Positions 3,604 to 43,207 of a stretch of DNA of 63,411 nt are shown here, piece by piece (the first letter of the stretch is position 1; each line of letters opens with the position of its first letter). The translations under genes were made by a program, and so were the position numbers. Source of the DNA: a virus (lineage: Duplodnaviria > Caudoviricetes); IMG/VR virus record IMGVR_UViG_3300030106_000472, positions 1 to 63,411 of that record. The stretch is one strand, 5' to 3'. The notes below the pieces were generated by a model, which did not search any database, had not been told where the DNA came from, and worked only from the letters and a program-made list of their open reading frames with translations.

Positions 3604-4230
3604 TTATTTATATTCTACCCATCCTGTAGCTATATATTTTTCTCCGCTTAGTGGTGGATTACCTCTATGTATGTGGGTAAAGTACGCAGGAAAAATTAAC
3701 ATACGACCTTTTTTAGGTTTAATTCTTGTATTTTGATGCAAAAACTCAGTTTCGCCACCTTCTTCTACATCGTTCAAAAATAAAGACCATGCAAGAACTC
3801 TATTTCTATGAAGAGAGCCTGTGTTTTCTGCGTGCCACTGATGATATCCTTCTCCTGGTAACGTTTTTTGTACCTTTCCTTCAAACACAACTAAGTTATC
3901 TACTAAAACAGGGCAATATTTTTCTGCATAAATTTTTAAAATTACTTCATGCATAAATTTTGTAAACCCGTGAACGTGTAAATTAAACTTAGTTTCTTCA
4001 AGCGGTAGTGCACCTTCTGCACCAAAATTACCAAAACCAACAGAAGTGTCTGCTTTTTCTAAAGTATTATTTGTATCGTATTGGTTTCTTGTTAAAGCGT
4101 GTCCCCGTTGTTTCATTACCTCAAAATGATGTAAAAACTCTTGACAATTATCGTCTTTAAAAAAGTCATCGAATATTGCTATATGGTCTTTTCTAAAATC
4201 AACATTACCATGTATGTCTTTATTCGTCAT
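3604..4230 (-). CDS. 2OG-Fe(II) oxygenase (prolyl-4-hydroxylase-like)
   Basis: WHAE (HxE), LFLNDVEEGGETEF, THIHRG, KYIATGW; ATG at 4230 preferred over 4257. Confidence 0.9.
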   Translation of the reverse strand: MTNKDIHGNVDFRKDHIAIFDDFFKDDNCQEFLHHFEVMKQRGHALTRNQYDTNNTLEKADTSVGFGNFGAEGALPLEETKFNLHVHGFTKFMHEVILKIYAEKYCPVLVDNLVVFEGKVQKTLPGEGYHQWHAENTGSLHRNRVLAWSLFLNDVEEGGETEFLHQNTRIKPKKGRMLIFPAYFTHIHRGNPPLSGEKYIATGWVEYK

Positions 4231-4585
4231 CTTTATCGTATTCCCTGTAATACTCAACTATGGATAAAATGTTTTTAGTGTACCTAGTTATATCAGCCAT
4301 GTTCATCGATAAATTTTCATATTGTTGCGTGGTTAAAGCATAGTAGGCAACCGCAGGAGCTTTACCTTCTTCAACGAGTTGTAAATATTCAGCCATGATT
4401 TCTGGTGTGAGGACTTTCCATTCAACACCAACGGCTTGAATCTCCATTGGTAATGGTGGGTGGTACATAGGTGCAGGTAACGCAATCGTATTCACCTCAA
4501 CAGGTTTAGTTGGTACTAACGAACAACCTGTAACAAAGAAGAATGAGCTTAGCAAAACTAAATGGTAGGAATTATTGATCTTCAT
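4220..4585 (-). CDS. outer-membrane lipoprotein, probable o-spanin
   Basis: Lipobox FVTGC after a hydrophobic stretch, Pro-rich segment, overlaps the end of the upstream coiled-coil membrane protein. Confidence 0.7.
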   Translation of the reverse strand: MKINNSYHLVLLSSFFFVTGCSLVPTKPVEVNTIALPAPMYHPPLPMEIQAVGVEWKVLTPEIMAEYLQLVEEGKAPAVAYYALTTQQYENLSMNMADITRYTKNILSIVEYYREYDKDDE

Positions 4586-9975: not shown

Positions 9976-10284
9976 CTACGAGTCGCCATCTTTTTTGAAT
10001 AAGCCATCTTCGAGTTTACCAGTGCGGTCTTTTATTTCGTCCCATGCGGCGTCCATACACTCTAATAGAGTCATATTATTCTGTGCTGCTAGTATAATCA
10101 ACACCACCACACAATCACCTATGCCATCTTTTAATCCTTCTTGGTCACCATAGGCGAGTGCTCTAGCCGTTTCACCGACTTCTTCTATTAGTTTGAGCAT
10201 TTGTCTATCTGGGTTTGCTTTATCTCCGATTAAGCCTTTTTCCTTACCCCAGTCTTCTACTCTAGCTATTGGAATCCATCCCAT
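9976..10284 (-). CDS. MazG-like nucleotide pyrophosphohydrolase
   Basis: QMLKLIEEVGE...DGIGD...AWDEIKDRTG..F.K. Confidence 0.88.
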   Translation of the reverse strand: MGWIPIARVEDWGKEKGLIGDKANPDRQMLKLIEEVGETARALAYGDQEGLKDGIGDCVVVLIILAAQNNMTLLECMDAAWDEIKDRTGKLEDGLFKKDGDS

Positions 10285-15001: not shown

Positions 15002-15581
15002 GTCTTGCTTTCCTACCGAAACCTTTTTCTATCATAATTTTCTCGTGAGCTTTTTGTCTTCTTAACTCTTCGAAACCCACTTCAGAAACATAAACTGTTC
15101 CATCAGCGTATCTTGCTACAGGAAGTTCTTCCGCTATTATTTTATCTATCTCATTTACGTCTTCCCAAACAAAATTATTATCTGCTTCTGCTTCTACTAC
15201 CCTCATTACTTTTAAAGGTAGAGCACAGGCAGGAAGCCAATCACGTCCTATTTTTCCATCAGTGCGTAAATCTTGCGTAACTCGTTTTTTACCAAAGACT
15301 GATCGATTTTTCTCATACTGTGTTTGTTTTTCACATTCTTTAGAACAATAAACTGATGACTTATGTCTGTCATATTGAAACTTTTTTTCACATCGAACAC
15401 AAACACAAGTCTTTTGTTCATTTACAAAATTACCTCGTGCTTTTTTAGTTGATAAGTCTCTACACTTTTTGCTACAGTATTTTGTTTTTCGTGGAGGGAG
15501 AGGAACTTTTTGACATTCAACACAATAATTATGTTCTGTAAATTCGTATTCCTGGTTTGTTATTTCATAAAAAGTAGCCAT
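14931..15581 (-). CDS. Cys-rich zinc-binding hypothetical protein
   Basis: Two CxxC...YCSxxC modules. Confidence 0.65.
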   Translation of the reverse strand: MATFYEITNQEYEFTEHNYCVECQKVPLPPRKTKYCSKKCRDLSTKKARGNFVNEQKTCVCVRCEKKFQYDRHKSSVYCSKECEKQTQYEKNRSVFGKKRVTQDLRTDGKIGRDWLPACALPLKVMRVVEAEADNNFVWEDVNEIDKIIAEELPVARYADGTVYVSEVGFEELRRQKAHEKIMIEKGFGRKARHGERKKFMALVKNQPNTDTSTEN

Positions 15582-15587
15582 ATAAAT

Positions 15588-15616
15588 AGGGTAAAGGAGA
15601 AAAACGCCAAAGTAAA
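15588..15616 (-). promoter_or_regulatory. sigma70-like promoter, probably leaderless transcript
   Basis: TTTACT-17-TACCCT; -10 ends 6 nt before ATG 15581. Confidence 0.55.
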
Positions 15617-15631
15617 CTACTAAATAGAGTA

Positions 15632-15775
15632 AAAAGCCCCTAGAAAGTCTCTTAAAGAGCCTACATCCGATATAAGCTAATCTGGGACGTCCTAAGAGCT
15701 TTTATATAGTTCTGAAGTAAAACCCTCAACTACTAGTAGATCGTTTAACCTGTGGCATCAGGTAGAGTCGATTTT
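15632..15775 (-). ncRNA. candidate structured RNA or branched terminator
   Basis: 12-bp closing stem 15632-15643/15692-15703 with G-U pairs on the minus strand enclosing two hairpins, plus two upstream hairpins. Confidence 0.4.
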
Positions 15776-15799
15776 TAGAAAAAGCTTAAAAATTAACAA

Positions 15800-16138
15800 C
15801 TACCAATCCCACCCTGTATGAGGAGCAACTTTTTGGTTATCTGACGCTAATTTGATTTCACGATCACTTAACCATTCATTAAATGCTCTTTGTGTTTGAT
15901 CAATATCTGAATAGAGTTGTTTAAATTCTGACCATTTATTACGTGCAACGTGCACACCATAGTAGTAATCACCATCACCTAACTTACAACGTGTGATAAT
16001 TTGCCACATACGTTGTTTTGTAATATCGTATTCTTTTCCTAGTTCTTCTAATGTAATTTCTGAATTATTCCATTTATCATACATATCTCTGTATCTAATG
16101 GAGTTTTCTTTTGCTTTTTGTTGTGAGATACCTTTCAT
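15800..16138 (-). CDS. sigma70 region-4-like HTH protein
   Basis: TLEELGKEYDITKQRMWQI. Confidence 0.7.
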   Translation of the reverse strand: MKGISQQKAKENSIRYRDMYDKWNNSEITLEELGKEYDITKQRMWQIITRCKLGDGDYYYGVHVARNKWSEFKQLYSDIDQTQRAFNEWLSDREIKLASDNQKVAPHTGWDW

Positions 16139-18003
16139 GTTTTTATTTCCTTTGTTTCGCCCCATGACACACCTAGTTCTTGATCCACTAATAGGGGAAC
16201 AGCAAGTTCGACACAGTTCTCCATTATTCTTGTTACTGTGTTAGCTTGTTCTGTGTTCTCTATTGAAATATCAACTTCATCGTGGACTTGTAGGTGAGGA
16301 ACTATTCCTTCCTCCCATAAACCTATCATTGCTAACTTAGTCATGTCAGCAGCAGAGCCTTGTATTAAACGATTTAGAGCCTTGTATGTGTATGACCTTT
16401 TTAAGTCTTCACCATATTTTTCTTTTGCCTCATCTAGAGGTAGAGGTAGAGTGCGTTCATATCTGCTTTCCCACAAATCGAAACGACAGTGTCTACCTGC
16501 GAACGTTTTGATATAGCCACGTTCCATAGCCACCCTTGCACATTGGTCTTGTAGAGCTCGAATAAAAGGAACGTTAGCGTGATACTGCTGAAATAAACTT
16601 TCAGCTTCTGTATCATCTATACCTAGTTCCTTAATTAACTTTTCTTTACCCATTCCATAACTTAATCCTAGATTAATTGTCTTAGCCTGTTTACGTGGTA
16701 TGTTAGCCATGTCTGCAACTATTTGATGAAAGTCTGCGTTATCGTCTCTGTATTGAGCGACTGCATTCTCAGCACCACTTAGTTTCATTTGATTAGCGTA
16801 ATGCACTGTTAATCTAGGTTCTTGTTGTGAATAATCAAACACACCCCACTGACACCCTTCTTCAGGAATAAACAACGAACGTATAAGGTTGCCTATTTCT
16901 GGGTCACGTGCAGGGACTTGTTGTAGATTAGGATTACTATAACTAAATCTACCACTGACTGTGCCGCCACGATCATTACGCATAGGATGTGCTTCTGCAT
17001 GTATCCTACCGTTAAATGCGTGTTCCATAATCATCTTATCGATAAACGTAGTTCTAGCTTTGTTGAGTTTTCTAGCTCTAACAATTAATTGCGGAAGTTC
17101 ATGTTCGTGACCTTCTAACCAGTCTTTTTGAAAACTAGCCATTCCCTTTTCTGTGCGAGGGAACCACAATTTATTTTTAGTAAAAATATTTTCAAGAGAA
17201 GCATTAGCCCATAGATTAACATCACTACCATACTTACGCTTTATCTCTACTTGTATTTTCTGTTCCTCAGTCGATAGTTGTTTACTAACTACTTCGGCTT
17301 TTTCTTCGTCTACTCTAACACCTCTCCATCGCATTTCTAATAGTAGAGGAATCAGCTTAGACTCCATTTCAAGTATTTTATCTAGTCCTTGTTCAGCTAT
17401 TTCTAGTTTGAGTTTATTCCATAACTTTAATGTAAGTGCTGCATCTTGTTGACCGTAAGGTCCAACATATTTAGCATGTAGCTTATACATTTCTGACTTA
17501 GGGTTGATACCGAAAGCCAACGCTGCATCTTGTAATAAAGACTCATCTTTCTTTTCATCACAGTAAGCAACACCTAAGTTATCAAGTGAATAAGAAAACC
17601 TGTTCTCGTTTATTAAGGGAGCCGCAACAATCGTATCGAGTATTTTACCTTTTACAATAATGCCTTCTCTTCTTAACCACCCTACATCGTAGAGAGCATT
17701 ATGAAATATAACGTCTCTCTTAGTAGAGTTGAGTAGATTTGTTAACCAACGTAGAACAATACCTTCATCTAGATTACCACCACCTTCATGACGGATAGGA
17801 AAATAACCAGACCAATTCTCTGTTGCTACTCCAACACCCACAATATGCCCACGACCTGTAGCCCATCCTGGACCACAAGTCGTTAGGTGAGGGTCATAAG
17901 TTTCTAAATCGATAGCCACTGTCTCTGTCTCAGAAAACTGAGGAAAGACATCAGGCACTGTCCAGGAACTTTCAGGAGCGAAAAGAGAATTCTGCAAGAT
18001 CAT
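16135..18003 (-). CDS. DNA polymerase family A with 3'-5' exonuclease
   Basis: ExoI IDLET, FHNALYD, motif A FDYSQQEPR, motif B RKQAKTINLGLSYG, motif C LQVHDE. Confidence 0.96.
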   Translation of the reverse strand: MILQNSLFAPESSWTVPDVFPQFSETETVAIDLETYDPHLTTCGPGWATGRGHIVGVGVATENWSGYFPIRHEGGGNLDEGIVLRWLTNLLNSTKRDVIFHNALYDVGWLRREGIIVKGKILDTIVAAPLINENRFSYSLDNLGVAYCDEKKDESLLQDAALAFGINPKSEMYKLHAKYVGPYGQQDAALTLKLWNKLKLEIAEQGLDKILEMESKLIPLLLEMRWRGVRVDEEKAEVVSKQLSTEEQKIQVEIKRKYGSDVNLWANASLENIFTKNKLWFPRTEKGMASFQKDWLEGHEHELPQLIVRARKLNKARTTFIDKMIMEHAFNGRIHAEAHPMRNDRGGTVSGRFSYSNPNLQQVPARDPEIGNLIRSLFIPEEGCQWGVFDYSQQEPRLTVHYANQMKLSGAENAVAQYRDDNADFHQIVADMANIPRKQAKTINLGLSYGMGKEKLIKELGIDDTEAESLFQQYHANVPFIRALQDQCARVAMERGYIKTFAGRHCRFDLWESRYERTLPLPLDEAKEKYGEDLKRSYTYKALNRLIQGSAADMTKLAMIGLWEEGIVPHLQVHDEVDISIENTEQANTVTRIMENCVELAVPLLVDQELGVSWGETKEIKT

Positions 18004-18317
18004 TTCTTCTTTTTAACCCTCACTACTTTTACTTTTGGTTTTTTAGCAGCTTTTTTCTTAGGTGCTTTACCACCTTCCCAAGCTTCGTTTACATCAGGAG
18101 TAGATTTGTCATCAGCGACATATCTTCCCTTTTTAGTCCTAGCACGTTTAGGTGTTACAGGCACTATACCTTCTTTTACATTCTTAGCCGATGTAAAAGG
18201 TTCAAGTTCTACCGTAGCCTCCTCTACTGCTGCTTTTACTATTTTTGCTTTTGCAACTTCATCCACCTTTACTGGCGGAGGTGTTATAAAAGATAAAAAT
18301 TTTGACCACCAACCCAT
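18000..18317 (-). CDS. basic hypothetical protein
   Basis: GAGGAGG SD before ATG 18317; RARTKKGRYVADDKSTPDVNEAW motif. Confidence 0.7.
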   Translation of the reverse strand: MGWWSKFLSFITPPPVKVDEVAKAKIVKAAVEEATVELEPFTSAKNVKEGIVPVTPKRARTKKGRYVADDKSTPDVNEAWEGGKAPKKKAAKKPKVKVVRVKKKK

Positions 18318-18318
18318 A

Positions 18319-18678
18319 TTAGTCCTCCTCTCTGTTTTCTTCAACAGAGTAATTTACATCATCAGCTTCTTCTACTAGGTTTTCTATATTAGTAGTATTA
18401 GTCATGATGTGTTCTTCAGTTAATAATAAATACCTACGCAAATCCCGTATATCATCGAGTAGACCTGCCTCGCCTTTATAGACTTCACCTGCCTCGAATA
18501 TATCCCAACCATGCTTTTCAGCTTGGTGCTCGATCCTATCGAACTTACGTGCTAACATCATAAAAGCACCTACACCTCCACGACGTTTCCAAGAGTCGCC
18601 ATACGACGTTTCGGCTCGTTTAAGAGCTTCTAAATCGTTTTGAGCAGACTCTTTCATTTTTTCCCATTTATTACTCAT
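18319..18678 (-). CDS. nucleotide-modification-associated domain 1 (Nmad1)-like / all-alpha NTP pyrophosphatase-like protein
   Basis: YGDSWKRRGG.G...ARK.DR and D...DL..Y pattern; adjacent to the TS homolog. Confidence 0.7.
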   Translation of the reverse strand: MSNKWEKMKESAQNDLEALKRAETSYGDSWKRRGGVGAFMMLARKFDRIEHQAEKHGWDIFEAGEVYKGEAGLLDDIRDLRRYLLLTEEHIMTNTTNIENLVEEADDVNYSVEENREED

Positions 18679-19717
18679 GAGTTTCTCCTTCGTCCGTTTT
18701 GTTAATAATCGTCTTGTCTCTTTTACGGACCCAATCGAAACAAGCCGTTCTCCAATCAGAAGCTTTTATCAAATTTATCTTGTCGTAGACTTCTTTAAAA
18801 TTCTTCATTTTATATGCTGCATAAACCTCCATCATAGGAATCGCTATATCAGTAAACGCGGGGTTGACCCAACCGTGATCATAAGAACTTATGTCCATAG
18901 GATGCATATTAAAAAATCTATTAAGTTCCCAATCTAACACAAACATATCTTTGAATAATAAACTAGGCTTATAATCCTTTAGAGTATCATAAGGATTCTT
19001 TATATCTCTATACGTGTATACATCTATCTCCATATGTTTAACTTTGTCCCAAACAGGGTTCAAATAAATATGAAAACTATCACTAACTTGTCTATACACA
19101 CCAACCTCGACCTCTAGATGAGCAGCTATGTATTCTTGTAATACTGACATGTGAACCACGTTAGCACCATAAGCCCCCCACAACATATCGTTTGATCGAT
19201 TACATACTGTCATGTTTAATTTGTTATCTCGTATCTTAAAATAAATGTTAGTATTACAAGGAACATCTTTGCCTTGTTTATCTAAATCATGAACTGCATC
19301 CCACATTTGTAAAACAGCACGTCTGTCTTCAGGATTCTTTTGTAACATTTTAACAATAACATCTAACTGATTTTTAAGAAAATACGTTCTCCATCTATAA
19401 CCATAGGCTCCCCATAAAGTCTCGCCATCATCTGAAAAATCTGCCATAGATTTAACAAAATAAGTTAAGGGTTTTAAATCGTTATGTCCTGCTAACATCC
19501 AAAGACTTTCTACGAAGTGGAAAAAAGGATTAGCATCTCTTTGTTTAATTAAACATACTCGTTCACAAGGTTTACTATAAACTGTTGTGACAGGCTCTAA
19601 AGCCTCATATGTTGTTCCATTACGACTTTCTTGTACTCTATAAGATGTATCATCTAAAAATAAATCGATACCAAGTAACATAGCATCGTTTACATTTCTT
19701 GCGTTAATCACCCTCAT
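18671..19717 (-). CDS. thymidylate synthase homolog, probable dUMP hydroxymethylase
   Basis: SRNG, RDANPFFH, GAYG.RWR, catalytic PCN, RSND..WG.YGAN, SFHIY. Confidence 0.85.
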   Translation of the reverse strand: MRVINARNVNDAMLLGIDLFLDDTSYRVQESRNGTTYEALEPVTTVYSKPCERVCLIKQRDANPFFHFVESLWMLAGHNDLKPLTYFVKSMADFSDDGETLWGAYGYRWRTYFLKNQLDVIVKMLQKNPEDRRAVLQMWDAVHDLDKQGKDVPCNTNIYFKIRDNKLNMTVCNRSNDMLWGAYGANVVHMSVLQEYIAAHLEVEVGVYRQVSDSFHIYLNPVWDKVKHMEIDVYTYRDIKNPYDTLKDYKPSLLFKDMFVLDWELNRFFNMHPMDISSYDHGWVNPAFTDIAIPMMEVYAAYKMKNFKEVYDKINLIKASDWRTACFDWVRKRDKTIINKTDEGETHE

Positions 19718-19935
19718 AATGTATCCTGATACCCGTCTATTATTTCACCGATAAGAAAACTTATCTCACTTTCATTTAATCCAGGAAGTTTTCTCTTTAT
19801 AAAAGCTACAGCCATTTTATGGTCAGCAGCAACCTTTAAAAAGAAAGCAACTTCTAAGAACTGGGTATAATATATGTCAACCGAGTCGCCCCAATCTTCT
19901 AAAAGCTCAACTGAATATTCGTTAACTTTTCCCAT
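19714..19935 (-). CDS. hypothetical protein in modification cluster
   Basis: Overlapping start/stop with both neighbours. Confidence 0.65.
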   Translation of the reverse strand: MGKVNEYSVELLEDWGDSVDIYYTQFLEVAFFLKVAADHKMAVAFIKRKLPGLNESEISFLIGEIIDGYQDTL

Positions 19936-20854
19936 ATTTACTTTCTCCTTCTATTAAATCTTCTACTATAGGAAGATTATTTTGTTTATATATAGACCTT
20001 GTTCTGCCTTCTCCTCTGAGAATACGTGAGTATTTATCGAACTCACAAAGTCCTCCTTCTATTTCGCGTAACTCATATAATCTATCGTTACGCATGGTTA
20101 TATGTGGTGGTAGTCTATCCACAACCAGTGCATATAACTCTTGCATTTCTCTATTCCAATCATGACTACGATGAGAAAAATCTAATTTTCTGCCTGTTAA
20201 CCTGTTAAGTCCTCGCATAGCTCCTGGACCTGCATTAGCCCACGTCATAATATCTGTAGCTTCATCCAACACATACGTATGTCTTAAATCAGTAACTACC
20301 TCGTATGCCATAAATGGACCCATGTATGGGTATTGTGTTAGTAGAGTCCAAGCAGACTTTAAAGAACTTATTCCCTCTCCTTTATCAAACTCTAAGCGTT
20401 TAATTAACCAAGTCTTTTCTGCCCATAAATTATTTATACAATCAACAACACCTGTAACCTTATCCATACCGTTTGGTGTTTTAATAATATAAGAACCAGT
20501 AATCCACTGAGGTTGTTCTGTTATAAGTTTGATAGCTTTATCACCGTCCCAGTTCACTAATAAGTCATTCTCTATAAGCGTTCTACCTGTAGGTATAAAA
20601 TTAAACCAACGAAAAATAATCGTAGCCATAATAACATCTGAACTATTTGCTAGAGGTTCTCTAATATGTGTTCTAAACCACCTAGTCGTTCTGTCATCTT
20701 CTCGGAATACTTGACAAAATTTAAACTCTTGCAAAATAGGGTCGTCTGTCCAAGGTGGAGAAAATTTAGACTCTTCTTTTTGAAGTCTAATCTTCTCCCT
20801 CTCTGTTTGCCAATAGCAAAAACGATTTACTTCTTCTGCAAGAAACTCAGTCAT
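19922..20854 (-). CDS. 5-hmdU DNA kinase helical domain (aGPT-Pplase1 family)
   Basis: ER..I..K...PWTDDPILQ.FKFC.VFREDDRTT.W, FRWFN, GPFMAYEVVTDL, GPGA.RGL, IE..LCEFDKY.R. Confidence 0.85.
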   Translation of the reverse strand: MTEFLAEEVNRFCYWQTEREKIRLQKEESKFSPPWTDDPILQEFKFCQVFREDDRTTRWFRTHIREPLANSSDVIMATIIFRWFNFIPTGRTLIENDLLVNWDGDKAIKLITEQPQWITGSYIIKTPNGMDKVTGVVDCINNLWAEKTWLIKRLEFDKGEGISSLKSAWTLLTQYPYMGPFMAYEVVTDLRHTYVLDEATDIMTWANAGPGAMRGLNRLTGRKLDFSHRSHDWNREMQELYALVVDRLPPHITMRNDRLYELREIEGGLCEFDKYSRILRGEGRTRSIYKQNNLPIVEDLIEGESKYGKS

Positions 20855-21765
20855 TACTTTTTCCTTAAAACCCAAGAACAGTTGTTAGCGTACTCAGGGT
20901 ATGGTGTTGCTGCTACTACACGTAAAAACTGTCTACCATACCTAGACTCTAACATTTCTAATTGTTCAGGTGACCATGCTCTAGGGTATCGTTTTACATT
21001 TGAATAAGTAGGTATTCCATCTACAGAAGGTTCTACTTGTTCCTTCATAGCTTTCCTTAGATTAGGAAGTTGTATAAACGTTCCTGTAACATCTACTATT
21101 TCAAAATTACGTTCTAGTTCTTGTTTAAGTTCTTCAAAACCCCACTCATATACGTGGTCTTCAGGTAGTTTATCGTTAGAACCGTCATGGTTAGGTGTAG
21201 ACACAAAAGCCAATGCGTTAGGTCTCATTGTCCTAGCGGCATCGTCTAACCAAGGACCAACAAACTGTCTCCCCATGTGTTCAATAACTTCAGTAGTCCA
21301 GAAAAAGTCTATACTTTCATCAGCTATATCAAATATTTGTTTAGGGTTTTGAAGGTCTCTTATTACAGTTAAGTCTTGTATTCTTATTTCTCCGTTAAAG
21401 TTTTTAAACCATGTAGAGTCTTTTAAAGGCTCTCCACCATTAGACCAAAAAGGGTTTTCTAACTCACATGCAGGATCAATATCGTAGCCAAGATAAGAAG
21501 CAATAACATCTGATTTCTTTATGACATATGCTTTATATAAATTTCTTAAAGTCCAACACTCACCACAACCTACTTCAAAAGTATCTAGTGGTCTACCTAA
21601 CCGCTTAGCTTCTTCAATACACATAGAAGCTATCTTATCGAAACGACTCATATGAGCTATCTCATCTGGTCTCCAGTTTGCTAGTACACCTGCACTAGCT
21701 ATATCCATTCTTGTATTTTTACTGTCGTTTTCATTAACAGTTAATTTCTTTCTTATTGATGACAT
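20854..21765 (-). CDS. class I SAM-dependent methyltransferase
   Basis: EVGCG motif I, GYDID, EVIEH, STPN, H..EW...EL. Confidence 0.85.
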   Translation of the reverse strand: MSSIRKKLTVNENDSKNTRMDIASAGVLANWRPDEIAHMSRFDKIASMCIEEAKRLGRPLDTFEVGCGECWTLRNLYKAYVIKKSDVIASYLGYDIDPACELENPFWSNGGEPLKDSTWFKNFNGEIRIQDLTVIRDLQNPKQIFDIADESIDFFWTTEVIEHMGRQFVGPWLDDAARTMRPNALAFVSTPNHDGSNDKLPEDHVYEWGFEELKQELERNFEIVDVTGTFIQLPNLRKAMKEQVEPSVDGIPTYSNVKRYPRAWSPEQLEMLESRYGRQFLRVVAATPYPEYANNCSWVLRKK

Positions 21766-22256
21766 TATTGATTTACCTCCCACCAACTTGGTTTATTTCT
21801 ACCCTTTTCCCATTTAGCGTAATGTTTTTCGTTTATAACATAATTACGATAAGCGAGAATAGAGTCCTCGTTTTTATACTCATCTGGCATAGCTTGTGCT
21901 ACGTCAGTCATGAGACCTCTAGTAATGTTTTTAGGCATTACATATAAAGCATCAGCTAATTTTTTAACACTAGCATGAGTACGTTTGTAGCGATAAGAAT
22001 ACTCATTACCTAACGCTAAAAAATGTTTATAGAGCCACCAGTAGTTACCACTACATTCTCTAGCCCATATGGTGCACGGATGATTCATGTAAGCTTTCTT
22101 GTATAAACCAACTTCGTCTGCATAATCATCTCCGTCTAATATTCGGTGAGCAGTGCATAACATCTGTGCAGTTTCTAGAGGCATCTTGACCAACATCTTG
22201 TCGGGCTGAGCTTTAGCAGAAACTACAGGATCCTCACTAAAATAAAATATGTTCAT
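21765..22256 (-). CDS. pyrimidine-dimer glycosylase (DenV)-related protein
   Basis: MNIFY..DP..A...DK..VKM.LE.AQML.TAH, NHPCT.W, EY..RY..H, QAMPD.YK...AYR.Y. Confidence 0.75.
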   Translation of the reverse strand: MNIFYFSEDPVVSAKAQPDKMLVKMPLETAQMLCTAHRILDGDDYADEVGLYKKAYMNHPCTIWARECSGNYWWLYKHFLALGNEYSYRYKRTHASVKKLADALYVMPKNITRGLMTDVAQAMPDEYKNEDSILAYRNYVINEKHYAKWEKGRNKPSWWEVNQ

Positions 22257-22295
22257 GGTTTTCTCCTTTCTTTAAACATAGAATATATAATAACC

Positions 22296-22325
22296 TTTAT
22301 ACTTTACTTTTATATGCAAAGTAAA
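22296..22325 (-). promoter_or_regulatory. sigma70-like promoter for the modification cluster
   Basis: TTTACT-18-TATAAA followed by SD AGAAAGGAGAAA. Confidence 0.5.
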
Positions 22326-22331
22326 GAACTT

Positions 22332-23828
22332 TTATATTTGATAGTGCCGTGGCGATTTAGGCTCAATCAGATATAAATTTTCTTTTGTCCTCGTTATACC
22401 AACATAAAACACCCTGTTTTCATCATCAGGATTTTGTTGATAGTTTTTATATACTCTAGTCGTTATGTCCGTTAACAGCACTACGTTGGTAGCTTCGCCT
22501 CCTTTAGCGGCATGAATAGTAGACAATCGTATACGTGGTTGTTTTGTTATTTTTTCTCCTCTACGTAACATAGCTCTTATATAACTTATCTCGCTAGGAC
22601 TTAGTAGAGTAAAAACGTCATACCAATGACCATCAGGTAAATCAGAAAAGTGTTCTTTTAGGTCTTGATATTGAAATGTTAAATTAGAATCTAACATATC
22701 TAACTTCTTATGTTTTTCTACTTTTACAAACTTTAATATATTAGCTGATTCGGTAAGACTTATAGACTCTCCTTTTCGTAACCTTTCCCAATATATGACA
22801 GCTCTCACTTTTGCTTCAGATATACTTGGTCTGCCTTTTACCTCGAAAAACCATCCCTCGTTTCTACAATACTCATCTACGTCTTCTAATAAGTAATTAG
22901 TTCTAGCTAAGACTAACCAATCTCCTTTTTCCATGTTTACTAGTTCTATGTTAGGTTCCCACCTAACCATCCCTTGTTCTTTTCTAGGTGTCCATTCCTT
23001 ATATATCCTAGATCGAACTTGACCAATACATTGTCTAGCGACCTCATGAACAGCAGCAGGGACACGATAAGACTGCTCTAACACTAAAGCATCTTTTGAG
23101 TTTTGTATCAAATAATCAACATCGGCTCCTGCCCACTTGTATATAGCTTGATCATCATCACCTGCTACATATATCTTCTTAGCTTTTTCTGCAATCTTGC
23201 GTACTACAGCCCATTGTAAAGGTGATAAATCTTGAGCTTCGTCTACAAACATAACATTTAGTTCTGGTATATCTCCTTCTTCTAAAAACTTATGTAACAT
23301 ATCCGTGTAGTCAACTAACAACCTGTCTTCTTTAAATAACTGTAATCCTTTAGCAAAACGCTCTAGTTCAAACCAACCCACAGCGTCTTCTACATCATGC
23401 CATTGTTCTTTTAACGGCACATTACGCATCCTAGCTAAGTTCTCTATAAACGCTAATCTATCATCATGAGTCATACCAAATATATGACCATCATCAGATG
23501 TCGTTCTTCCTGTAAGTCGTAAATTAAGTTTGTCGTTTAAGTCTTTTATGTCTGTATGACTTACTACACTTTCTCTTGTTAAACCTAGTTGTCTAAAAGC
23601 TAACGAGTGTAACGTTCTAAAGAAAGGAAGTTCTTTATCGCTGATATTGAACTTAGTCATGGCTCTTTGCTTACCTTCGTTCACTGCTTTTTTAGTAAAT
23701 GTAAAAAACCCGATAGAATCAGGGCTAGTGCCGTTTTGTAATTCGTCTTCTATAAGCCCGAGTAGAGTGCTCGTCTTGCCTGTTCCAGGAGGTCCAAGAA
23801 TAACTTGTGTGTGGCTAGGTAACGTCAT
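22332..23828 (-). CDS. SF1 (UvrD/Rep-like) helicase
   Basis: GPPGTGKT, TFTKKA, RTLHS, VDEAQD, GDDDQAIY, QSYR, STIHAAKGGE, YVGITR. Confidence 0.92.
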   Translation of the reverse strand: MTLPSHTQVILGPPGTGKTSTLLGLIEDELQNGTSPDSIGFFTFTKKAVNEGKQRAMTKFNISDKELPFFRTLHSLAFRQLGLTRESVVSHTDIKDLNDKLNLRLTGRTTSDDGHIFGMTHDDRLAFIENLARMRNVPLKEQWHDVEDAVGWFELERFAKGLQLFKEDRLLVDYTDMLHKFLEEGDIPELNVMFVDEAQDLSPLQWAVVRKIAEKAKKIYVAGDDDQAIYKWAGADVDYLIQNSKDALVLEQSYRVPAAVHEVARQCIGQVRSRIYKEWTPRKEQGMVRWEPNIELVNMEKGDWLVLARTNYLLEDVDEYCRNEGWFFEVKGRPSISEAKVRAVIYWERLRKGESISLTESANILKFVKVEKHKKLDMLDSNLTFQYQDLKEHFSDLPDGHWYDVFTLLSPSEISYIRAMLRRGEKITKQPRIRLSTIHAAKGGEATNVVLLTDITTRVYKNYQQNPDDENRVFYVGITRTKENLYLIEPKSPRHYQI

Positions 23829-24409
23829 AAACCACTTCTAAAAGTTAAATTGATTCTTTCACCTGCTTTTTCTAAATCAGGAACAGCGTGAGTAGACGTC
23901 ATTTGATTATGTCCGTCAAACATTAAAACATCACCATGCTCTAGTAAAAAGAACTGTTCATTTATTAAAAAGTTTTCTTTCCTGACCTCTATCTCACTGG
24001 TGTCTGTTTGCATTTTAATTGAGTTCTCATACGTTCTTTGAACAAAAACTCTAGGAGCACCTAACGAAATTGAAACAACGATATCGTCTAATGTAGGAAC
24101 CGTGTCTGAATGATGAGGAATCCCTTTGCCATCAGTACCGTAGTAACCACATAAACAAAACGTAAATTGTTTATCAACTCCTAACTCATTCCACACAAGT
24201 TTTTCTGCTTTTTGTTTGATATGATACATAGAGTCAGTCCAAGGAGTAGGCTTATACAACTTACCTGCGTAGTCAAAAGAAGAACTACCAAAACCTTTTG
24301 TAGGTCTGCCTTTTACAACTTTGCCTTTAAACTTTCTTTCTCTAGGCTTGTCCCATTCTGTAATATTTGGGTCGCAGTTTTCAAAATATTTTTTAATATA
24401 AATGATCAT
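23825..24409 (-). CDS. AlkB-family 2OG-Fe(II) dioxygenase
   Basis: HSD (HxD), SISLGAPR.F, HAVP, RINLTFR. Confidence 0.88.
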   Translation of the reverse strand: MIIYIKKYFENCDPNITEWDKPRERKFKGKVVKGRPTKGFGSSSFDYAGKLYKPTPWTDSMYHIKQKAEKLVWNELGVDKQFTFCLCGYYGTDGKGIPHHSDTVPTLDDIVVSISLGAPRVFVQRTYENSIKMQTDTSEIEVRKENFLINEQFFLLEHGDVLMFDGHNQMTSTHAVPDLEKAGERINLTFRSGL

Positions 24410-25929
24410 AATAAATTATCGTTAAACTCTGGTAAGTCATGAGACTCATCCTGTGCTTTAAACTCTTGTATAAACCATACATTTACACCTTTGCCTTTTA
24501 TGTTGAAAAAGTACGGCTCTCCCTCTAACTGTTTTAATCGTGCTGTTAGTTTATTTCTTTGATACTCTTTAAAATTATTTCTGTGTAAGTAATCCATCAA
24601 ATCCATAAGCCTAAAATAAGTTCTACCTTTGTTTGTCCAAGGTTTATGTAATAGCAATTCATCACGTTCTCTAGCAGGTCTTTCCGTACAGAAAGCTTCT
24701 AATAACTCCATAAAATAACCCTCTGTAGAACTTTCTTTAGGAACTTCTACTATTGTTATAGAGTCTAATAACTGTTGTATGATTTGATTCCAGACGTTTT
24801 CTTTTACCTTTGGAGGTATTTTATTTAAAGCATCCATACACTTACGTTGAAACCTGTTTTGATTTAACAGATCATCTGTCTCTAATTCTAGTCTACCTCC
24901 CTCTACATCAAGAAACCATATCGGTGGATCGCTATCCTGTTTTGTAAGGTTACTGAACAAAGGTGTACCGCCGTTAGCACCAATACCAAACTTACGAGTT
25001 CTACATAAAGGGCTATTACAATGACTTGCTATAGGTTGGTCATTACATCTATAAAAATAGTCTTTTCTTTGTAACTGTTTACCTACGGTTAAAACTTCTT
25101 GTGCCCCTAGTGGAGGTTGCATATATTTTATGTTTACATCTTCTAATCTTTTTTCCCAATCATCAGGAAACTTTTTACGTAAAAACACACCTACATTAAA
25201 CAATCCTGAATTTCTTGATCCTTCAGGAAATCCTTGAACAACTAAATGTTGTATACATGGTGGGGCTTGGTCTAACCACTCCATAGTTTCATTTAAGGGA
25301 CTAGCTTCTAATCTTTCTAATGTGCTAGGTTTTAGTTCTATTTCATTACAATAGTTTAAAAATTCTTCTGGGGTTAACGCTTGTCCTTCTTTTCCATAAG
25401 CGTATCTAGTAGAGTTCTCTCCACCAAAATAAGGCATATTTAATGTACTGCCTCTGTCTCCTCTATCTAACAATAGTTTAGTTTGTTTAGGGAATATCTC
25501 TACTTGTCCATACCCTATCGCAGCAGCAATCTGTCTTAGTTTTCTTTGTACCATTGATGCTGCTACTGGTTCACTAAGGAACATATAGATGTGTGCTCCA
25601 CCGCTTTTACTACGGCAAAGAACCAATGGTAACTCCTGCTTGGCTATTTTGATTGCTAAATCTTTTAAATCTAGCTGATACTCGTCAACGTCGATGGCAC
25701 CCCAGACACATTTATTGTCCTCGTCTATCGCTACAATCCCTACACTTTGTTGACCAGACAAATGGTCTTCCCATAACTTTAATAAGTCGTCGTCTGACAA
25801 CTCCTTAGAAATAGTAATGTTTTTACCACTTGCCTTGCCATCCTCTCTAGTTTCATTGTTAGCTGTAAAAGTTCCATACGCTTGACGTAGTCCCGCATAG
25901 CGTACAGCAAACTCCTTTGCTAACGACAT
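24406..25929 (-). CDS. primase (AEP-like with PriCT-like domain)
   Basis: WGAIDVD (DxD), RSKSGGAH, EIFPKQ, NMPY, PPC...EGSRN..LF. Confidence 0.8.
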   Translation of the reverse strand: MSLAKEFAVRYAGLRQAYGTFTANNETREDGKASGKNITISKELSDDDLLKLWEDHLSGQQSVGIVAIDEDNKCVWGAIDVDEYQLDLKDLAIKIAKQELPLVLCRSKSGGAHIYMFLSEPVAASMVQRKLRQIAAAIGYGQVEIFPKQTKLLLDRGDRGSTLNMPYFGGENSTRYAYGKEGQALTPEEFLNYCNEIELKPSTLERLEASPLNETMEWLDQAPPCIQHLVVQGFPEGSRNSGLFNVGVFLRKKFPDDWEKRLEDVNIKYMQPPLGAQEVLTVGKQLQRKDYFYRCNDQPIASHCNSPLCRTRKFGIGANGGTPLFSNLTKQDSDPPIWFLDVEGGRLELETDDLLNQNRFQRKCMDALNKIPPKVKENVWNQIIQQLLDSITIVEVPKESSTEGYFMELLEAFCTERPARERDELLLHKPWTNKGRTYFRLMDLMDYLHRNNFKEYQRNKLTARLKQLEGEPYFFNIKGKGVNVWFIQEFKAQDESHDLPEFNDNLL

Positions 25930-25943
25930 ACAATATCCCCTTG

Positions 25944-26717
25944 TTAGATAGTGTCGTTAACAACGTCATTCTGCTGTTCTTGTTTTACTTCTACATCTCC
26001 AGACCTAGCAGCACTCATGAAGTCTTTAGCCATCATAGCCATAGACATATCAGTAGCACCCTCTTGGTTAATACTATAACCATTCCAACTACCTTTATCG
26101 TTAGACTGTGTAGTCGTAGTGAGTCTGTAAGTGTACGCAAACATAGGAGCCTCTACTGATTCTCCTTTAGAGTTTTGTACTCTAGCCATTCTTAACATAG
26201 TTAACCACTTTCTAGAAACTCCTAATTGCGTAGATGTAAATGCTAGAACTGCTTGTTGTGCAGTGCCGTTTTCTACAACTAACACAAAGAACTGTGCGGT
26301 TTCAACAATTTCATTACCTTCAGGAGTGTAATATCTTCTAGACTCCTCGTCTCTCGTACACTTAGAAAGTATAGATATGTCATGACTAGCGTTTACAAGT
26401 CCGCCACCTTTTTCTCTAGGAATCCACTCAATGTACTTCTTATTATAAGCACAAGGAATTATAGAGATTCCTTTTTCTCCATCATGAGCTTCACCTGTAA
26501 CTGTGTTGTACAGATCCCCTGCACTAGCACCCGCTACAAAACTCCCATGTTGTTTTTGTAATTGTGGTGACATGGGTTGTAAAACTCTTATAAAGGGGAT
26601 TGCAAAATCCTCAGTAGTTGTTTCTTCTAACCCAGTACCGCCTGATAATAAAGTATCGTCAAACGTACTTATTGCTGTATTTTTATTTTCAGCTATTTCA
26701 TTTTTATTTTCTGCCAT
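25944..26717 (-). CDS. putative single-stranded DNA-binding protein
   Basis: D..IPF...LQ.MSPQ, YIEW.PR..GGG.V, S..W; replication module context. Confidence 0.6.
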   Translation of the reverse strand: MAENKNEIAENKNTAISTFDDTLLSGGTGLEETTTEDFAIPFIRVLQPMSPQLQKQHGSFVAGASAGDLYNTVTGEAHDGEKGISIIPCAYNKKYIEWIPREKGGGLVNASHDISILSKCTRDEESRRYYTPEGNEIVETAQFFVLVVENGTAQQAVLAFTSTQLGVSRKWLTMLRMARVQNSKGESVEAPMFAYTYRLTTTTQSNDKGSWNGYSINQEGATDMSMAMMAKDFMSAARSGDVEVKQEQQNDVVNDTI

Positions 26718-42563: not shown

Positions 42564-43203
42564 TATCTTGGGTACTCAGTTGTTGGATATTAAATGTTCT
42601 TTGTCCGCCTGTATGATCTAGGTAAAAATATCCACCTGCTGAAGCATTTACACCTGTTCCTAAATAAGTAACTGTGTTATCACTACCGTCAATATCCATA
42701 AAGTTAGTAGCCCCATCAATATTTATTGTTGATGTGACCGTGTTATTAGATCCTTGTATTATCCAGTCTAAATCTAAAGATGCTGCTAACGCTGTCGTTC
42801 CTTGATTTAAAGTGAACGTATTGCTACTGCCTGTAACAGCAACATTGTGGTTAGAGCTATTAGCCCCATAAGTATTCGTTGGGTCTACTTGTATAGTGAA
42901 ATTATTAGTTGAGCCTGTAAAGTTGTAAGCTCCTGTAAAACTATTAGCTGTTATATCTCCAAGAAATTTATTAGTTGCACCAATCATATTGATGTCTAAT
43001 GTCATTCCTGTTCCATCTAAATCGAAAGGATTCAAGCTGCCTGATGTTGAATTAAGACCACCAATAATATTAGAAATACCTAGTTGCTCTAGGTCTATAT
43101 TGGCACCAGTTCCTGACTGATCTACATATATCTCATTATCAGCCGCAAATAACGGAAATAAAGTAAGACATAACAAAAGTTGTATGCACTTCTTCATCAT
43201 CAT
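42472..43203 (-). CDS. curlin-like secreted beta-solenoid protein
   Basis: Signal peptide, DNEIY.DQ.G, repeated I.G..N strands rich in N/G/T/S; follows csgG. Confidence 0.7.
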   Translation of the reverse strand: MMMKKCIQLLLCLTLFPLFAADNEIYVDQSGTGANIDLEQLGISNIIGGLNSTSGSLNPFDLDGTGMTLDINMIGATNKFLGDITANSFTGAYNFTGSTNNFTIQVDPTNTYGANSSNHNVAVTGSSNTFTLNQGTTALAASLDLDWIIQGSNNTVTSTINIDGATNFMDIDGSDNTVTYLGTGVNASAGGYFYLDHTGGQRTFNIQQLSTQDNDWLKIISVGGNAASSVCVVQNDQGTSLGC

Positions 43204-43207
43204 AATT

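What the first reader, a model, noticed from the sequence alone, without database searches (positions are those of the whole stretch)
18319..21765. Thymine hypermodification cluster with a SAM methyltransferase instead of the known transferases: possibly a new DNA base
Seen: a tightly overlapping operon of SAM-MTase, aGPT-Pplase1/5-hmdU DNA kinase helical domain, a 73-aa ORF, a TS homolog and an Nmad1-like protein, upstream of PolA. A MazG-like enzyme lies elsewhere. The TS homolog keeps the catalytic Cys and the Asn (YGAN) that specifies dUMP rather than dCMP. Known: in M6, ViI, phiW-14 and SP10, 5hmdU is incorporated, phosphorylated on DNA, then substituted by an amino-acid:DNA transferase (aGPT-Pplase2), often with radical-SAM or PLP tailoring. 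I recognise no such transferase, P-loop kinase, radical-SAM or PLP enzyme in this near-complete genome. Inference: a minimal variant pathway giving a methylated 5hmdU derivative (for example 5-methoxymethyl-dU or a methylated phospho-adduct) or another undescribed product.
Basis: partly seen in the sequence, partly recalled or inferred. Interest (0 to 1): 0.85.

Follow-up and report, generated by a model that had tools for sequence, protein, structure and literature searches.

The report
Kinase-less hydroxymethyluracil methylation cassette, marine phage
An abundant uncultured marine phage carries a tightly packed gene set that probably puts hydroxymethyluracil into its DNA in place of thymine and then methylates it with a Hen1-like enzyme, which would give a DNA base that has not been described.

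Summary
On the minus strand, overlapping by 1-26 nt, lie a class I SAM methyltransferase (MT), a stand-alone aGPT-Pplase1/HMUDK_hel protein (HEL), a 73-aa ORF, a thymidylate-synthase homologue with catalytic Cys and uracil-type Asn, a 119-aa ORF, a basic 114-aa ORF and PolA. The record is a complete 63.4-kb phage of the HTVC023P pelagiphage type. It has no 5-hmdU DNA kinase, amino-acid:DNA transferase, radical-SAM or PLP enzyme.

MT is closest to Hen1/HENMT1 2'-O-methyltransferases and keeps their metal-binding residues. MT relatives in other phage lineages sit beside Asp-type (dCMP) hydroxymethylase modules, and some are fused to a C5-cytosine DNA methylase-like domain. So the family tracks 5-hydroxymethylpyrimidines.

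HEL keeps the Cys-Glu pair that is essential in the amino-acid:DNA transferases, so it may be an enzyme and not only a helper.

Best reading (about 0.45): 5-hmdU DNA is O-methylated to 5-methoxymethyl-dU. No chemistry was tested.

The TS plus aGPT-Pplase1 pair in these pelagiphages is already published (Wittmers 2022). The methyltransferase link and the missing kinase are not. Earlier runs of this scan found the same cassette on other genomes.

The parts
21765..22256 (-). DenV-like protein (Pyr_excise domain), first gene of the overlapping run; accessory
   Evidence: PF03013 E 1.4e-7 and phrog_624 E 8.6e-57. Its TAA stop overlaps the MT ATG by 1 nt. Found in 38 of 80 related loci.
20854..21765 (-). 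Hen1-like class I SAM methyltransferase (MT), 303 aa from the ATG at 21765
   Evidence: Methyltransf_23, 26.9 bits. Model pLDDT 86. The family profile hits HENMT1 at E 1.4e-8 and bacterial Hen1 at 2e-8 to 2e-7, with the alignment running through E-x-x-E-H and STPN...DH-x-[FY]-EW. Motifs lie at residues 159-163, 189 and 203-208; there is no DPPY, PCQ or ENV motif.
19922..20854 (-). Stand-alone aGPT-Pplase1 / HMUDK_hel protein (HEL), 310 aa from the ATG at 20854
   Evidence: PF18723 E 2.1e-40 and phrog_2396 E 5.9e-60. 42-43% identical to PaMx11 gp50 and PhiJL001 gp19. Invariant E266, C270 and E271. The MT stop and HEL start overlap as TAATG, with AAGGA upstream.
19714..19935 (-). 73-aa ORF of unknown function; accessory
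   Evidence: No Pfam, PHROG or NCBIfam match. Found in 50 of 80 related loci by tblastn and 57 of 80 by jackhmmer.
18671..19717 (-). Thymidylate-synthase homologue, predicted dUMP hydroxymethylase
   Evidence: PF00303 E 1.1e-22 and phrog_5131 E 1e-109. Best solved relative is MilA CMP hydroxymethylase at E 8.4e-22, against 7e-12 for thymidylate synthase. Below every NCBIfam thymidylate-synthase equivalog cut-off. Best cultured relatives are Sonora, M6 (42.5%, E 9e-77), SPO1-like and ViI-like phages. Asn at the specificity site in 78 of 78 marine relatives.
18319..18678 (-). 119-aa helical protein, possibly Nmad1/DUF1599 or MazG-like
   Evidence: Highly conserved, with 37 invariant columns in 14 sequences. 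Three-helix model, pLDDT 70. Only weak MazG-like fold rows, E about 4-8. Atlas cluster with DUF1599 on 11% of members. Present in 77 of 80 loci.
18000..18344 (-). 114-aa protein with a Lys-rich basic tail; accessory
   Evidence: No family found. Present in 61 of 80 loci.
16135..18003 (-). Family A DNA polymerase at the end of the run
   Evidence: 50-54% identical to PolA of pelagiphage HTVC023P and 023Pt_psg01, and 39% to PaMx11 gp55.
9976..10284 (-). MazG-type nucleotide pyrophosphohydrolase, candidate for keeping dTTP/dUTP out of the DNA
   Evidence: PF03819 E 3.1e-6. Its role is inferred.

Best explanation
The cassette is a DNA thymine-replacement and modification module.

- Step 1 (inferred from family membership): the TS homologue converts dUMP to 5-hydroxymethyl-dUMP. 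Host kinases make the triphosphate and the phage PolA incorporates it. The MazG and/or the 119-aa helical protein may deplete dTTP/dUTP.
- Step 2 (inferred): the Hen1-like methyltransferase uses SAM and a bound divalent metal to O-methylate the 5-CH2OH group, giving 5-methoxymethyl-2'-deoxyuridine.
- Where step 2 happens: most likely on the DNA polymer, since MT is translationally coupled to HEL, a DNA-base enzyme family, and relatives are fused to a C5-cytosine DNA methylase-like domain.
- HEL's own reaction is unknown. It keeps a Cys-Glu pair like that of the amino-acid:DNA transferases, so it is probably catalytic on the 5-substituted uracil and not a passive helper.

No step has been shown biochemically.
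For: (1) Complete phage. It has HEL and the TS homologue but no kinase, ADDT, radical-SAM or PLP enzyme.

(2) The TS homologue has the catalytic Cys and the uracil-type Asn. Its best cultured relatives are phages with 5-hmdU or its derivatives: M6, SPO1-like and ViI-like. It is below all thymidylate-synthase equivalog cut-offs.

(3) The cassette behaves as one unit. HTVC023P and 023Pt_psg01 have the same primase-helicase-PolA backbone without it. Among the 80 related loci kept of 118, HEL is present in 80, TS in 78 and the 119-aa ORF in 77; the loci lacking them are cut short.

(4) MT is Hen1-like. The profile matches HENMT1 and Hen1 at 1e-8 to 4e-6 through the E-x-x-E-H and H-x-x-E motifs. 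These are the Hen1 metal ligands (PMC10781085, passages). E166, E169, H170 and H211 (numbering from the TTG start) are invariant or nearly invariant in 19 sequences.

(5) The MT family tracks hydroxymethylpyrimidine enzymes in other lineages. 49 of 64 IMG/VR loci with an MT relative have a TS homologue in the flanks. All 51 TS homologues, counting AXL3 and MW202510, carry Asp. 16 of 25 MT clusters at 50% identity have such a neighbour.

(6) AXL3, which is cultured, has the gene order MT - NTP-PPase - dNMP kinase - TS - dCMP deaminase. Its DNA resists 35 of 37 restriction enzymes; only AATT and TTAA cutters cut (PMC7504290, passages).

(7) 16 of 17 longer relatives of the AXL3-type MT are fused to PF00145. 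In L168/L173 the fusion lies directly after NTP-PPase, TS(Asp) and dCMP deaminase.

(8) L089 has MT inside a canonical cluster with HEL, ADDT and an HMUDK kinase.
Against: - No chemical data exist for any member.
- The MT fold is generic. All structural matches tie at Z 15-17, and HEN1 is rank 11.
- Hen1's metal binds a vicinal diol, which a single CH2OH does not offer.
- Most MT relatives sit among nucleotide-level enzymes (NTP-PPase, dNMP kinase), so methylation of the mononucleotide is possible.
- An O-methyl ether is not a leaving group, so methylation cannot replace the kinase step if HEL is a transferase.
- The 80 marine loci are one lineage, so their synteny is inherited and is not independent evidence.
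- MT relatives without a TS neighbour exist: 9 of 25 clusters.
- The Asp-type TS homologues could be dCMP methylases and not hydroxymethylases.
Confidence: 0.45

Rival explanations
1. Same final base, but made before replication. MT methylates 5-hydroxymethyl-dUMP in the nucleotide pool and PolA incorporates 5-methoxymethyl-dUTP. HEL acts separately on the DNA.
For: In most other lineages MT is embedded among nucleotide-level enzymes (NTP-PPase, dNMP kinase, hydroxymethylase, dCMP deaminase) without HEL. The nearest folds are mostly small-molecule methyltransferases.
Against: Relatives are fused to a C5-cytosine DNA methylase-like domain. MT is translationally coupled to HEL here. MT sits in a post-replicative hypermodification cluster in L089. 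The closest sequence relatives, the Hen1 enzymes, act on polynucleotides. This window has no phage dNMP kinase.
Confidence: 0.13
2. HEL is the real group transferase. It attacks C6 of 5-hmdU in DNA and forms the exocyclic methylene without prior phosphorylation (or after a host-made activation). It then adds an unknown nucleophile, and MT methylates that adduct. The final base is something other than 5-methoxymethyl-dU.
For: The E-x-x-x-C-E motif is invariant in HEL across MT-linked, kinase-linked and glycosyltransferase-linked members. The Cys and the neighbouring Glu are essential in clade 2 transferases (PMC8989533, section 17 passages). A weak hhalign match puts HEL's Cys on a Cys of PaMx11 gp46 (E 0.25). 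From the 2018 table plus my own reading: SP10 seems to carry only the kinase-fused clade 1 domain, yet makes alpha-glutamylthymidine.
Against: MT relatives occur with hydroxymethylases but without HEL or ADDT in most lineages, so MT does not need an adduct. M6 gp55, the HEL orthologue, was dispensable for glycinyl-thymidine formation. No activity has been reported for clade 1 in the passages I read.
Confidence: 0.15
3. The phage DNA carries plain 5-hmdU. MT works on something else, for example 2'-O-methylation of an RNA 3' end as Hen1 does, or a sugar hydroxyl on a glycosylated base.
For: Its closest characterised relatives are RNA 2'-O-methyltransferases. An earlier scan note (e1-6061560, not checked here) read a relative as a sugar methylase beside a glycosyltransferase. 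PhiJL001 and some pelagiphage clades pair HEL and TS with a glycosyltransferase.
Against: No RNA ligase, Pnkp or glycosyltransferase family appears among the 80 ORFs scanned. MT lacks Hen1's RNA-binding regions. The repeated adjacency to pyrimidine hydroxymethylases in 16 of 25 MT clusters, and the cassette's presence or absence as one block, are hard to explain by an unrelated role.
Confidence: 0.15
4. The TS homologue is an ordinary thymidylate synthase, the DNA has canonical T, and HEL and MT are relics or serve other ends.
For: It matches PF00303, and public records of relatives are annotated 'thymidylate synthase'.
Against: It falls below all six thymidylate-synthase equivalog cut-offs, for example 98.9 against 174.6 bits. 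It is closer to a CMP hydroxymethylase than to any solved thymidylate synthase. Its relatives are in phages with 5-hmdU-derived DNA. HEL, MT and TS are conserved down to about 50-60% identity across the clade.
Confidence: 0.05

Closest known systems
Thymidine hypermodification clusters of Pseudomonas phages M6 and PaMx11 (Lee et al. 2018, PMC5889632; Lee et al. 2021, PMC8989533)
   Same: A dUMP-hydroxymethylase-type TS homologue (41-43% identity) and an aGPT-Pplase1/HMUDK_hel protein (42%) lie just upstream of a related PolA (39%) in the same order.
   Different: The P-loop 5-hmdU DNA kinase (gp49), the amino-acid:DNA transferase (gp46), and the FAD, acetyltransferase, PLP and radical-SAM tailoring enzymes are all absent. 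A Hen1-like methyltransferase occupies the position just upstream of HEL where PaMx11 has the kinase.
TS plus aG/PT-PPlase1 'partner AMGs' of HTVC023P-type pelagiphage clades V, VIII and IX (Wittmers et al. 2022, PMC9599517)
   Same: This is the same phage group and the same two genes near PolA. The curli CsgG/CsgF, FecR and cyclase module is also present in this window.
   Different: The paper's main text never uses the word methyltransferase, and its only kinase mentions are histidine kinases. It does not discuss the missing kinase and transferase. Its supplements were not seen.
Hen1 / HENMT1 small-RNA 3'-terminal 2'-O-methyltransferases
   Same: Class I fold. Profile E-values of 1.4e-8 to 4e-6. 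Shared E-x-x-E-H and H-x-x-E residues, which are the metal ligands in Hen1.
   Different: No RNA-binding domains and no Pnkp or ligase partner. It has its own conserved N-terminal extension. It sits with pyrimidine hydroxymethylases, and structurally it is no closer to HEN1 than to many other methyltransferases.
T4-type 5-hydroxymethylcytosine pathway followed by post-replicative decoration (glucosylation)
   Same: The logic is the same: a TS-family hydroxymethylase supplies the 5-CH2OH base, and a second enzyme caps the hydroxyl. MT relatives sit in NTP-PPase - dNMP kinase - Asp-type TS - dCMP deaminase modules.
   Different: Here the base is uracil-type. The capping group would be a methyl from SAM and not a sugar. 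There is no phage dNMP kinase or dCMP deaminase in this window.

Membership tests
Characterised thymidine hypermodification pathway (5-hmdU, then 5-PmdU, then amino-acid adduct) | dUMP hydroxymethylase of the TS family | tested here: met
   PF00303. Catalytic Cys and Asn present. Relatives are M6, SPO1-like and ViI-like phages. The activity itself was not assayed.
Characterised thymidine hypermodification pathway (5-hmdU, then 5-PmdU, then amino-acid adduct) | P-loop 5-hmdU DNA kinase | tested here: not met
   PF18748 absent from the whole record. No tblastn match to PaMx11 gp49 at E <= 1. The only credible Walker A motif is UvrD's.
Characterised thymidine hypermodification pathway (5-hmdU, then 5-PmdU, then amino-acid adduct) | Clade 2 aGPT-Pplase (amino-acid:DNA transferase, PF18724) | tested here: not met
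   PF18724 absent. No match to PaMx11 gp46.
Characterised thymidine hypermodification pathway (5-hmdU, then 5-PmdU, then amino-acid adduct) | Tailoring enzyme (radical-SAM, PLP, FAD lyase or acetyltransferase) | tested here: not met
   None among the 80 ORFs scanned against Pfam.
HMUDK_hel / aGPT-Pplase1 (PF18723) | Profile score above the curated cut-off, and the family's conserved residues | tested here: met
   139.3 bits against a cut-off of 25. 23 invariant columns are shared with PaMx11 gp50, PhiJL001 gp19, L089 and L123, including E266, C270 and E271.
HMUDK_hel / aGPT-Pplase1 (PF18723) | Fused to, or next to, a P-loop 5-hmdU DNA kinase | tested here: not met
   It stands alone. Its upstream neighbour is the methyltransferase.
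Hen1 / HENMT1 2'-O-methyltransferases | Class I methyltransferase domain with the metal-binding tetrad E-x-x-E-H plus a downstream His | tested here: met
   The profile alignment to 5wy0/4xcx covers both motifs. The ligand identities come from PMC10781085. The motifs lie at residues 159-163 and 204. Metal binding was not assayed.
Hen1 / HENMT1 2'-O-methyltransferases | RNA 3'-end substrate, with RNA-binding domains or a Pnkp/ligase partner | tested here: not met
   The protein has 303 aa and only its own N-terminal extension. No ligase or Pnkp family appears among the 80 ORFs scanned. The substrate itself cannot be tested with these tools.
Bona fide thymidylate synthase (ThyA equivalogs) | Score above the NCBIfam equivalog cut-off | tested here: not met
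   The best match is 98.9 bits against a cut-off of 174.55. The five other models give 50-70 bits against cut-offs of 108-405.
Nmad1 / DUF1599 (for the 119-aa ORF) | Match to PF07659 | tested here: inconclusive
   No Pfam hit at E <= 5. The Atlas neighbour cluster carries PF07659 on 11% of members. hhalign against the L089 DUF1599 protein gives E 0.029. Only non-significant MazG-like fold rows.
DNA N6-adenine / N4-cytosine / C5-cytosine methyltransferases (for MT) | Catalytic (D/N/S)PP(Y/F/W/H) motif, or PC(Q) with ENV | tested here: not met
   None of these motifs occurs in the 303-aa protein.

The most novel reading that the evidence does not exclude
A phage-specific family of Hen1-like, metal-dependent O-methyltransferases caps the 5-hydroxymethyl group of pyrimidines in DNA. 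This would give 5-methoxymethyluracil in one of the most abundant groups of marine pelagiphages, and 5-methoxymethylcytosine in AXL3-like and many other phages. These would be two undescribed natural DNA bases, made by a route that skips the kinase and amino-acid transferase of every characterised thymidine hypermodification pathway.
Probability: 0.4. Interest if true: 0.85.

Novelty: new variant of a known kind. Interest (0 to 1): 0.7.

Why it matters
Modified phage DNA bases decide which host restriction and CRISPR systems can cut a phage. They have also given useful enzymes and reagents.

If the reading is right, a simple SAM-dependent ether formation on DNA would be new chemistry for DNA modification. 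It would occur in a phage group that is very abundant in the surface ocean: MT relatives were seen in Tara, JGI and ENA data.

Native long-read sequencing of marine viromes might then miscall T in these genomes.

The prediction is testable now, because Stenotrophomonas phage AXL3 carries an MT relative, is in culture, and has restriction-resistant DNA of unknown chemistry (PMC7504290).

The work also raises the question of what clade 1 aGPT-Pplases do. They are conserved in M6-like phages, yet were dispensable in the published reconstitution.

Tried and rejected
- Near-identical DNA in cultured phages: none.
- PHROGs and NCBIfam for MT, the 73-aa, 119-aa and 114-aa ORFs: nothing.
- Foldseek and VIA-align on the MT model: only generic class I methyltransferases, all tied, so the fold alone does not name a substrate.
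- Complex prediction for MT with HEL: 'no answer' (score 0.00). This counts neither for nor against binding.
- Profile of the 119-aa ORF against PDB sequences: nothing below E 1. Foldseek: nothing at E <= 0.001.
- hhalign of HEL against two ADDT proteins: not significant (E 0.25 and 0.44).
- Fused forms of the window's own MT: none found among 1720 candidates, which is weak evidence.
- Pfam on ten weak, longer MT hits: only unknown N-terminal extensions, one DUF3383 and one PF00145 fusion.
- Promoter and terminator scans over 15500-26500: not above chance (16 found against 35.6 expected; 6 against 4.6). I therefore claim no promoter.
- TS homologue in the L089 record: none, but that record is only 35% complete.
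- Nanopore runs holding this DNA: none was listed.
- The search for related loci with single protein P0280: no relative.
- Literature: no paper holds 5-methoxymethyl + bacteriophage + deoxyuridine, methoxymethyl + phage + hydroxymethylcytosine, or Hen1 + hydroxymethylase + phage. The 25 listed of 39 papers with methoxymethyl-pyrimidine terms were irrelevant by title and abstract.
- Considered and rejected: MT as an orphan DNA adenine or cytosine methylase (no catalytic motifs), and a hidden kinase in the small ORFs (no Walker A).

Full report
**What is there.** The window is a whole IMG/VR virus record of 63,411 bases that CheckV rates 100% complete. Almost all genes are on the minus strand.

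Read in the direction of transcription, the finding's region holds these genes:

| Gene | Coordinates | Evidence |
|---|---|---|
| DenV-like protein | 21765-22256 | PF03013 |
| Class I SAM methyltransferase (MT) | 20854-21765 | Methyltransf_23, 26.9 bits against a cut-off of 27 |
| aGPT-Pplase1 / HMUDK_hel protein (HEL) | 19922-20854 | PF18723, E 2.1e-40 |
| 73-aa ORF | 19714-19935 | no family |
| Thymidylate-synthase (TS) homologue | 18671-19717 | PF00303 E 1.1e-22; phrog_5131 E 1e-109 |
| 119-aa ORF | 18319-18678 | no family |
| Basic 114-aa ORF | 18000-18344 | no family |
| PolA | 16135-18003 | family A polymerase |

Homologues start at the methionine encoded at 21765, so MT has 303 aa and not 310. 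Consecutive genes overlap by 1, 1, 14, 4, 8, 26 and 4 nt. A TAATG stop/start overlap and a purine-rich stretch upstream occur at both DenV/MT and MT/HEL. The consensus promoter and terminator scans found nothing above chance.

**What is missing.**
- Searches of the whole record find no ADDT (PF18724) and no HMUDK kinase (PF18748), while HMUDK_hel is found once.
- tblastn with 16 PaMx11 and 20 PhiJL001 proteins matches only HEL, TS, PolA and three others at E < 1e-3. The PaMx11 kinase gp49 and transferase gp46 give nothing at E <= 1.
- A six-frame Walker A scan gives three matches, and only the UvrD one is credible.
- Pfam scans of 80 ORFs show no kinase, radical-SAM, PLP, FAD-lyase, acetyltransferase or glycosyltransferase family.
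- A MazG lies at 9976-10284.

The one weak point is the 'Nmad1-like' label for the 119-aa ORF.

**Which phage.** PolA is 50-54% identical to that of Pelagibacter phage HTVC023P and of 023Pt_psg01. The window also has Pam3 gp32-34-like genes and a CsgG/CsgF, FecR and cyclase module.

HTVC023P and 023Pt_psg01 share the primase-helicase-PolA backbone but have only small ORFs where this cassette sits. So the cassette is gained or lost as a block.

Wittmers et al. 2022 (PMC9599517; I read passages only, supplements were closed) already report TS plus aG/PT-PPlase1 as 'partner' genes for DNA hypermodification in HTVC023P-type clades V, VIII and IX. They also report the curli module. The word methyltransferase does not occur in their main text.

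**The TS homologue.**
- Its best solved relative is the CMP hydroxymethylase MilA (E 8.4e-22), against 7e-12 for the best thymidylate synthase.
- In those alignments the Asn of YGAN sits opposite MilA's Asp and opposite the Asn of thymidylate synthase. The catalytic Cys is kept.
- It is below every NCBIfam thymidylate-synthase equivalog cut-off.
- Its best relatives in cultured phages are Sonora, M6 (42.5%, E 9e-77) and PaMx11-like phages, then SPO1-like Bacillus phages and ViI-like phages. These groups are known, from the papers cited and from my own knowledge, to hold 5-hmdU or bases derived from it.
- All 78 of 78 TS homologues in the related marine loci keep the Asn.

**The methyltransferase.** The family is small: 154 representatives at E <= 1e-3 among 1.84 billion.

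A model built on 19 sequences has pLDDT 86. Foldseek and VIA-align return only generic class I methyltransferases, tied at Z 15-17. HEN1 (3htx) scores Z 16.1 at rank 11, with the highest identity, 20%.

Sequence profiles discriminate better than the fold:
- The family profile hits human HENMT1 (E 1.4e-8), bacterial Hen1 (2e-8 to 2e-7) and plant HEN1 (4e-6).
- The alignment runs through E-x-x-E-H and STPN...DH-x-[FY]-EW.
- Those Glu, Glu, His and His are the metal ligands of Hen1 (PMC10781085, passages).
- They are invariant or nearly invariant in the family.
- MT has no DNA adenine or cytosine methylase motifs.

I tested it as described above.

**Where else the methyltransferase occurs.**

Within the marine clade (the best 80 of 118 relatives), HEL follows MT in 80 of 80 loci. 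TS is present in 78 and the 119-aa ORF in 77; the loci lacking them are truncated. This is one lineage, so the synteny is inherited.

Outside the clade, 72 IMG/VR loci were fetched with a profile of distant members, and 64 hold a recognisable MT relative.
- 49 of these 64 also hold a TS homologue within the flanks.
- Counting AXL3 and MW202510, all 51 of 51 such TS homologues carry Asp at the specificity site, which is the dCMP type.
- The usual gene order is MT, NTP-PPase, dNMP kinase, TS(Asp), dCMP deaminase.
- Grouped at 50% identity, 16 of 25 MT clusters have a TS neighbour.

Stenotrophomonas phage AXL3, which is in culture, has this module. Its DNA resisted 35 of 37 restriction enzymes, and only AATT and TTAA cutters worked (PMC7504290, passages).

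Among the longer relatives of the AXL3-type MT, 16 of 17 are fused to a C5-cytosine DNA methylase domain. In L168/L173 such a fusion lies directly after NTP-PPase, TS(Asp) and dCMP deaminase.

L089 shows MT inside a canonical cluster with HEL, ADDT, an HMUDK kinase, a phosphatase and a DUF1599 protein.

What these contexts share is a 5-hydroxymethylpyrimidine. The fusions and the L089 cluster point to action on DNA.

**HEL.** It is a typical family member. It shares 23 invariant columns with PaMx11 gp50 (kinase-linked), PhiJL001 gp19 (glycosyltransferase-linked), L089 and L123, including an E-x-x-x-C-E motif.

In clade 2 aGPT-Pplases a conserved Cys and the neighbouring Glu are essential, and the mechanism is attack at C6 with an exocyclic methylene intermediate (PMC8989533, section 17 passages). 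The same paper shows that M6 gp55, which I take to be the HEL orthologue, was not needed to make glycinyl-thymidine. It also shows that the kinase domain of SP10 gp186 works without its C-terminal part. So the function of clade 1 is open.

I read HEL as probably catalytic.

**Most likely mechanism and odds.**
- I put about 0.85 on the phage making 5-hmdU DNA.
- I put about 0.65 on MT acting on a hydroxymethylpyrimidine or its derivative.
- I put about 0.45 on the specific outcome, 5-methoxymethyl-dU made mainly on the polymer.

The rivals are:
- methylation at the nucleotide level (0.13);
- a HEL-made adduct that MT then methylates (0.15);
- plain 5-hmdU with MT working on another substrate (0.15);
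- an ordinary thymidylate synthase (0.05).

Weak points:
- There is no chemistry for any member.
- Hen1's metal binds a vicinal diol, which a single CH2OH does not offer.
- A methyl ether cannot replace phosphate as a leaving group.
- The Asp-type TS homologues could be dCMP methylases.

**Novelty.** I found no paper on a natural methoxymethyl pyrimidine in phage DNA, or on a Hen1-like enzyme beside hydroxymethylases. These searches cover only the open-access library.

The TS plus aGPT-Pplase1 pairing in these phages is published. The methyltransferase link and the kinase-less layout are not.

This scan has reported the same cassette on other genomes, and Hen1-like methyltransferases beside dCMP hydroxymethylases. 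Those are unchecked AI notes and add no independent support.

Noticed in passing
window 39712-44528 (-): A curli-type secretion module in a phage: CsgG (43208-44044), CsgF (43995-44528), FecR (41445-42563) and a CHASE2 plus adenylate/guanylate cyclase protein (39712-41445). Already described for HTVC023P-type pelagiphages by Wittmers et al. 2022.
   Followed up: partly
window 23825-24409 (-) and 3604-4257 (-): Two 2OG-Fe(II) oxygenases. One is AlkB-like (PF13532, E 8.9e-20), lies between the primase and UvrD, and is present in 60 of 80 related loci. The other is of the 2OG-FeII_Oxy_3 type. Whether the AlkB-like enzyme relates to the DNA methylation chemistry is unknown.
   Followed up: no
L089:3941-9875: A viral contig fragment with an unusual thymidine hypermodification cluster: HEL, a myo-inositol-1-phosphate synthase-like protein, an MT relative, ADDT, a dual-specificity phosphatase, an HMUDK kinase and a DUF1599 protein. 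It may make yet another base.
   Followed up: partly
P0271-P0287; L168:7959-9893, L173:7959-9893: Proteins of 611-1077 aa that join a C5-cytosine DNA methylase-like domain (PC motif kept) to a Hen1-like methyltransferase. In two viral loci the gene follows NTP-PPase, an Asp-type TS homologue and dCMP deaminase.
   Followed up: partly
L123:5341-6621: The MT relative of a 75.7-kb viral contig carries a LAGLIDADG endonuclease domain (PF00961, E 3.4e-13) in its N-terminal part. The same locus has a divergent HEL together with an Asp-type TS homologue.
   Followed up: no
L108:5007-5771 and AXL3 gp32 (L158:5174-5773); window 18000-18344: AXL3-like modules have a conserved gene just upstream of MT that encodes a protein with a long Lys/Ala/Pro-rich, histone H1-like stretch. 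The window's 114-aa ORF before PolA also ends in a Lys-rich tail. Both may bind DNA.
   Followed up: no
window, ORFs scanned (coordinates not resolved): A Cpn10 (GroES) co-chaperonin, a staphylococcal-nuclease homologue and two SU10 adaptor-like proteins are encoded among the 40 ORFs scanned together.
   Followed up: no
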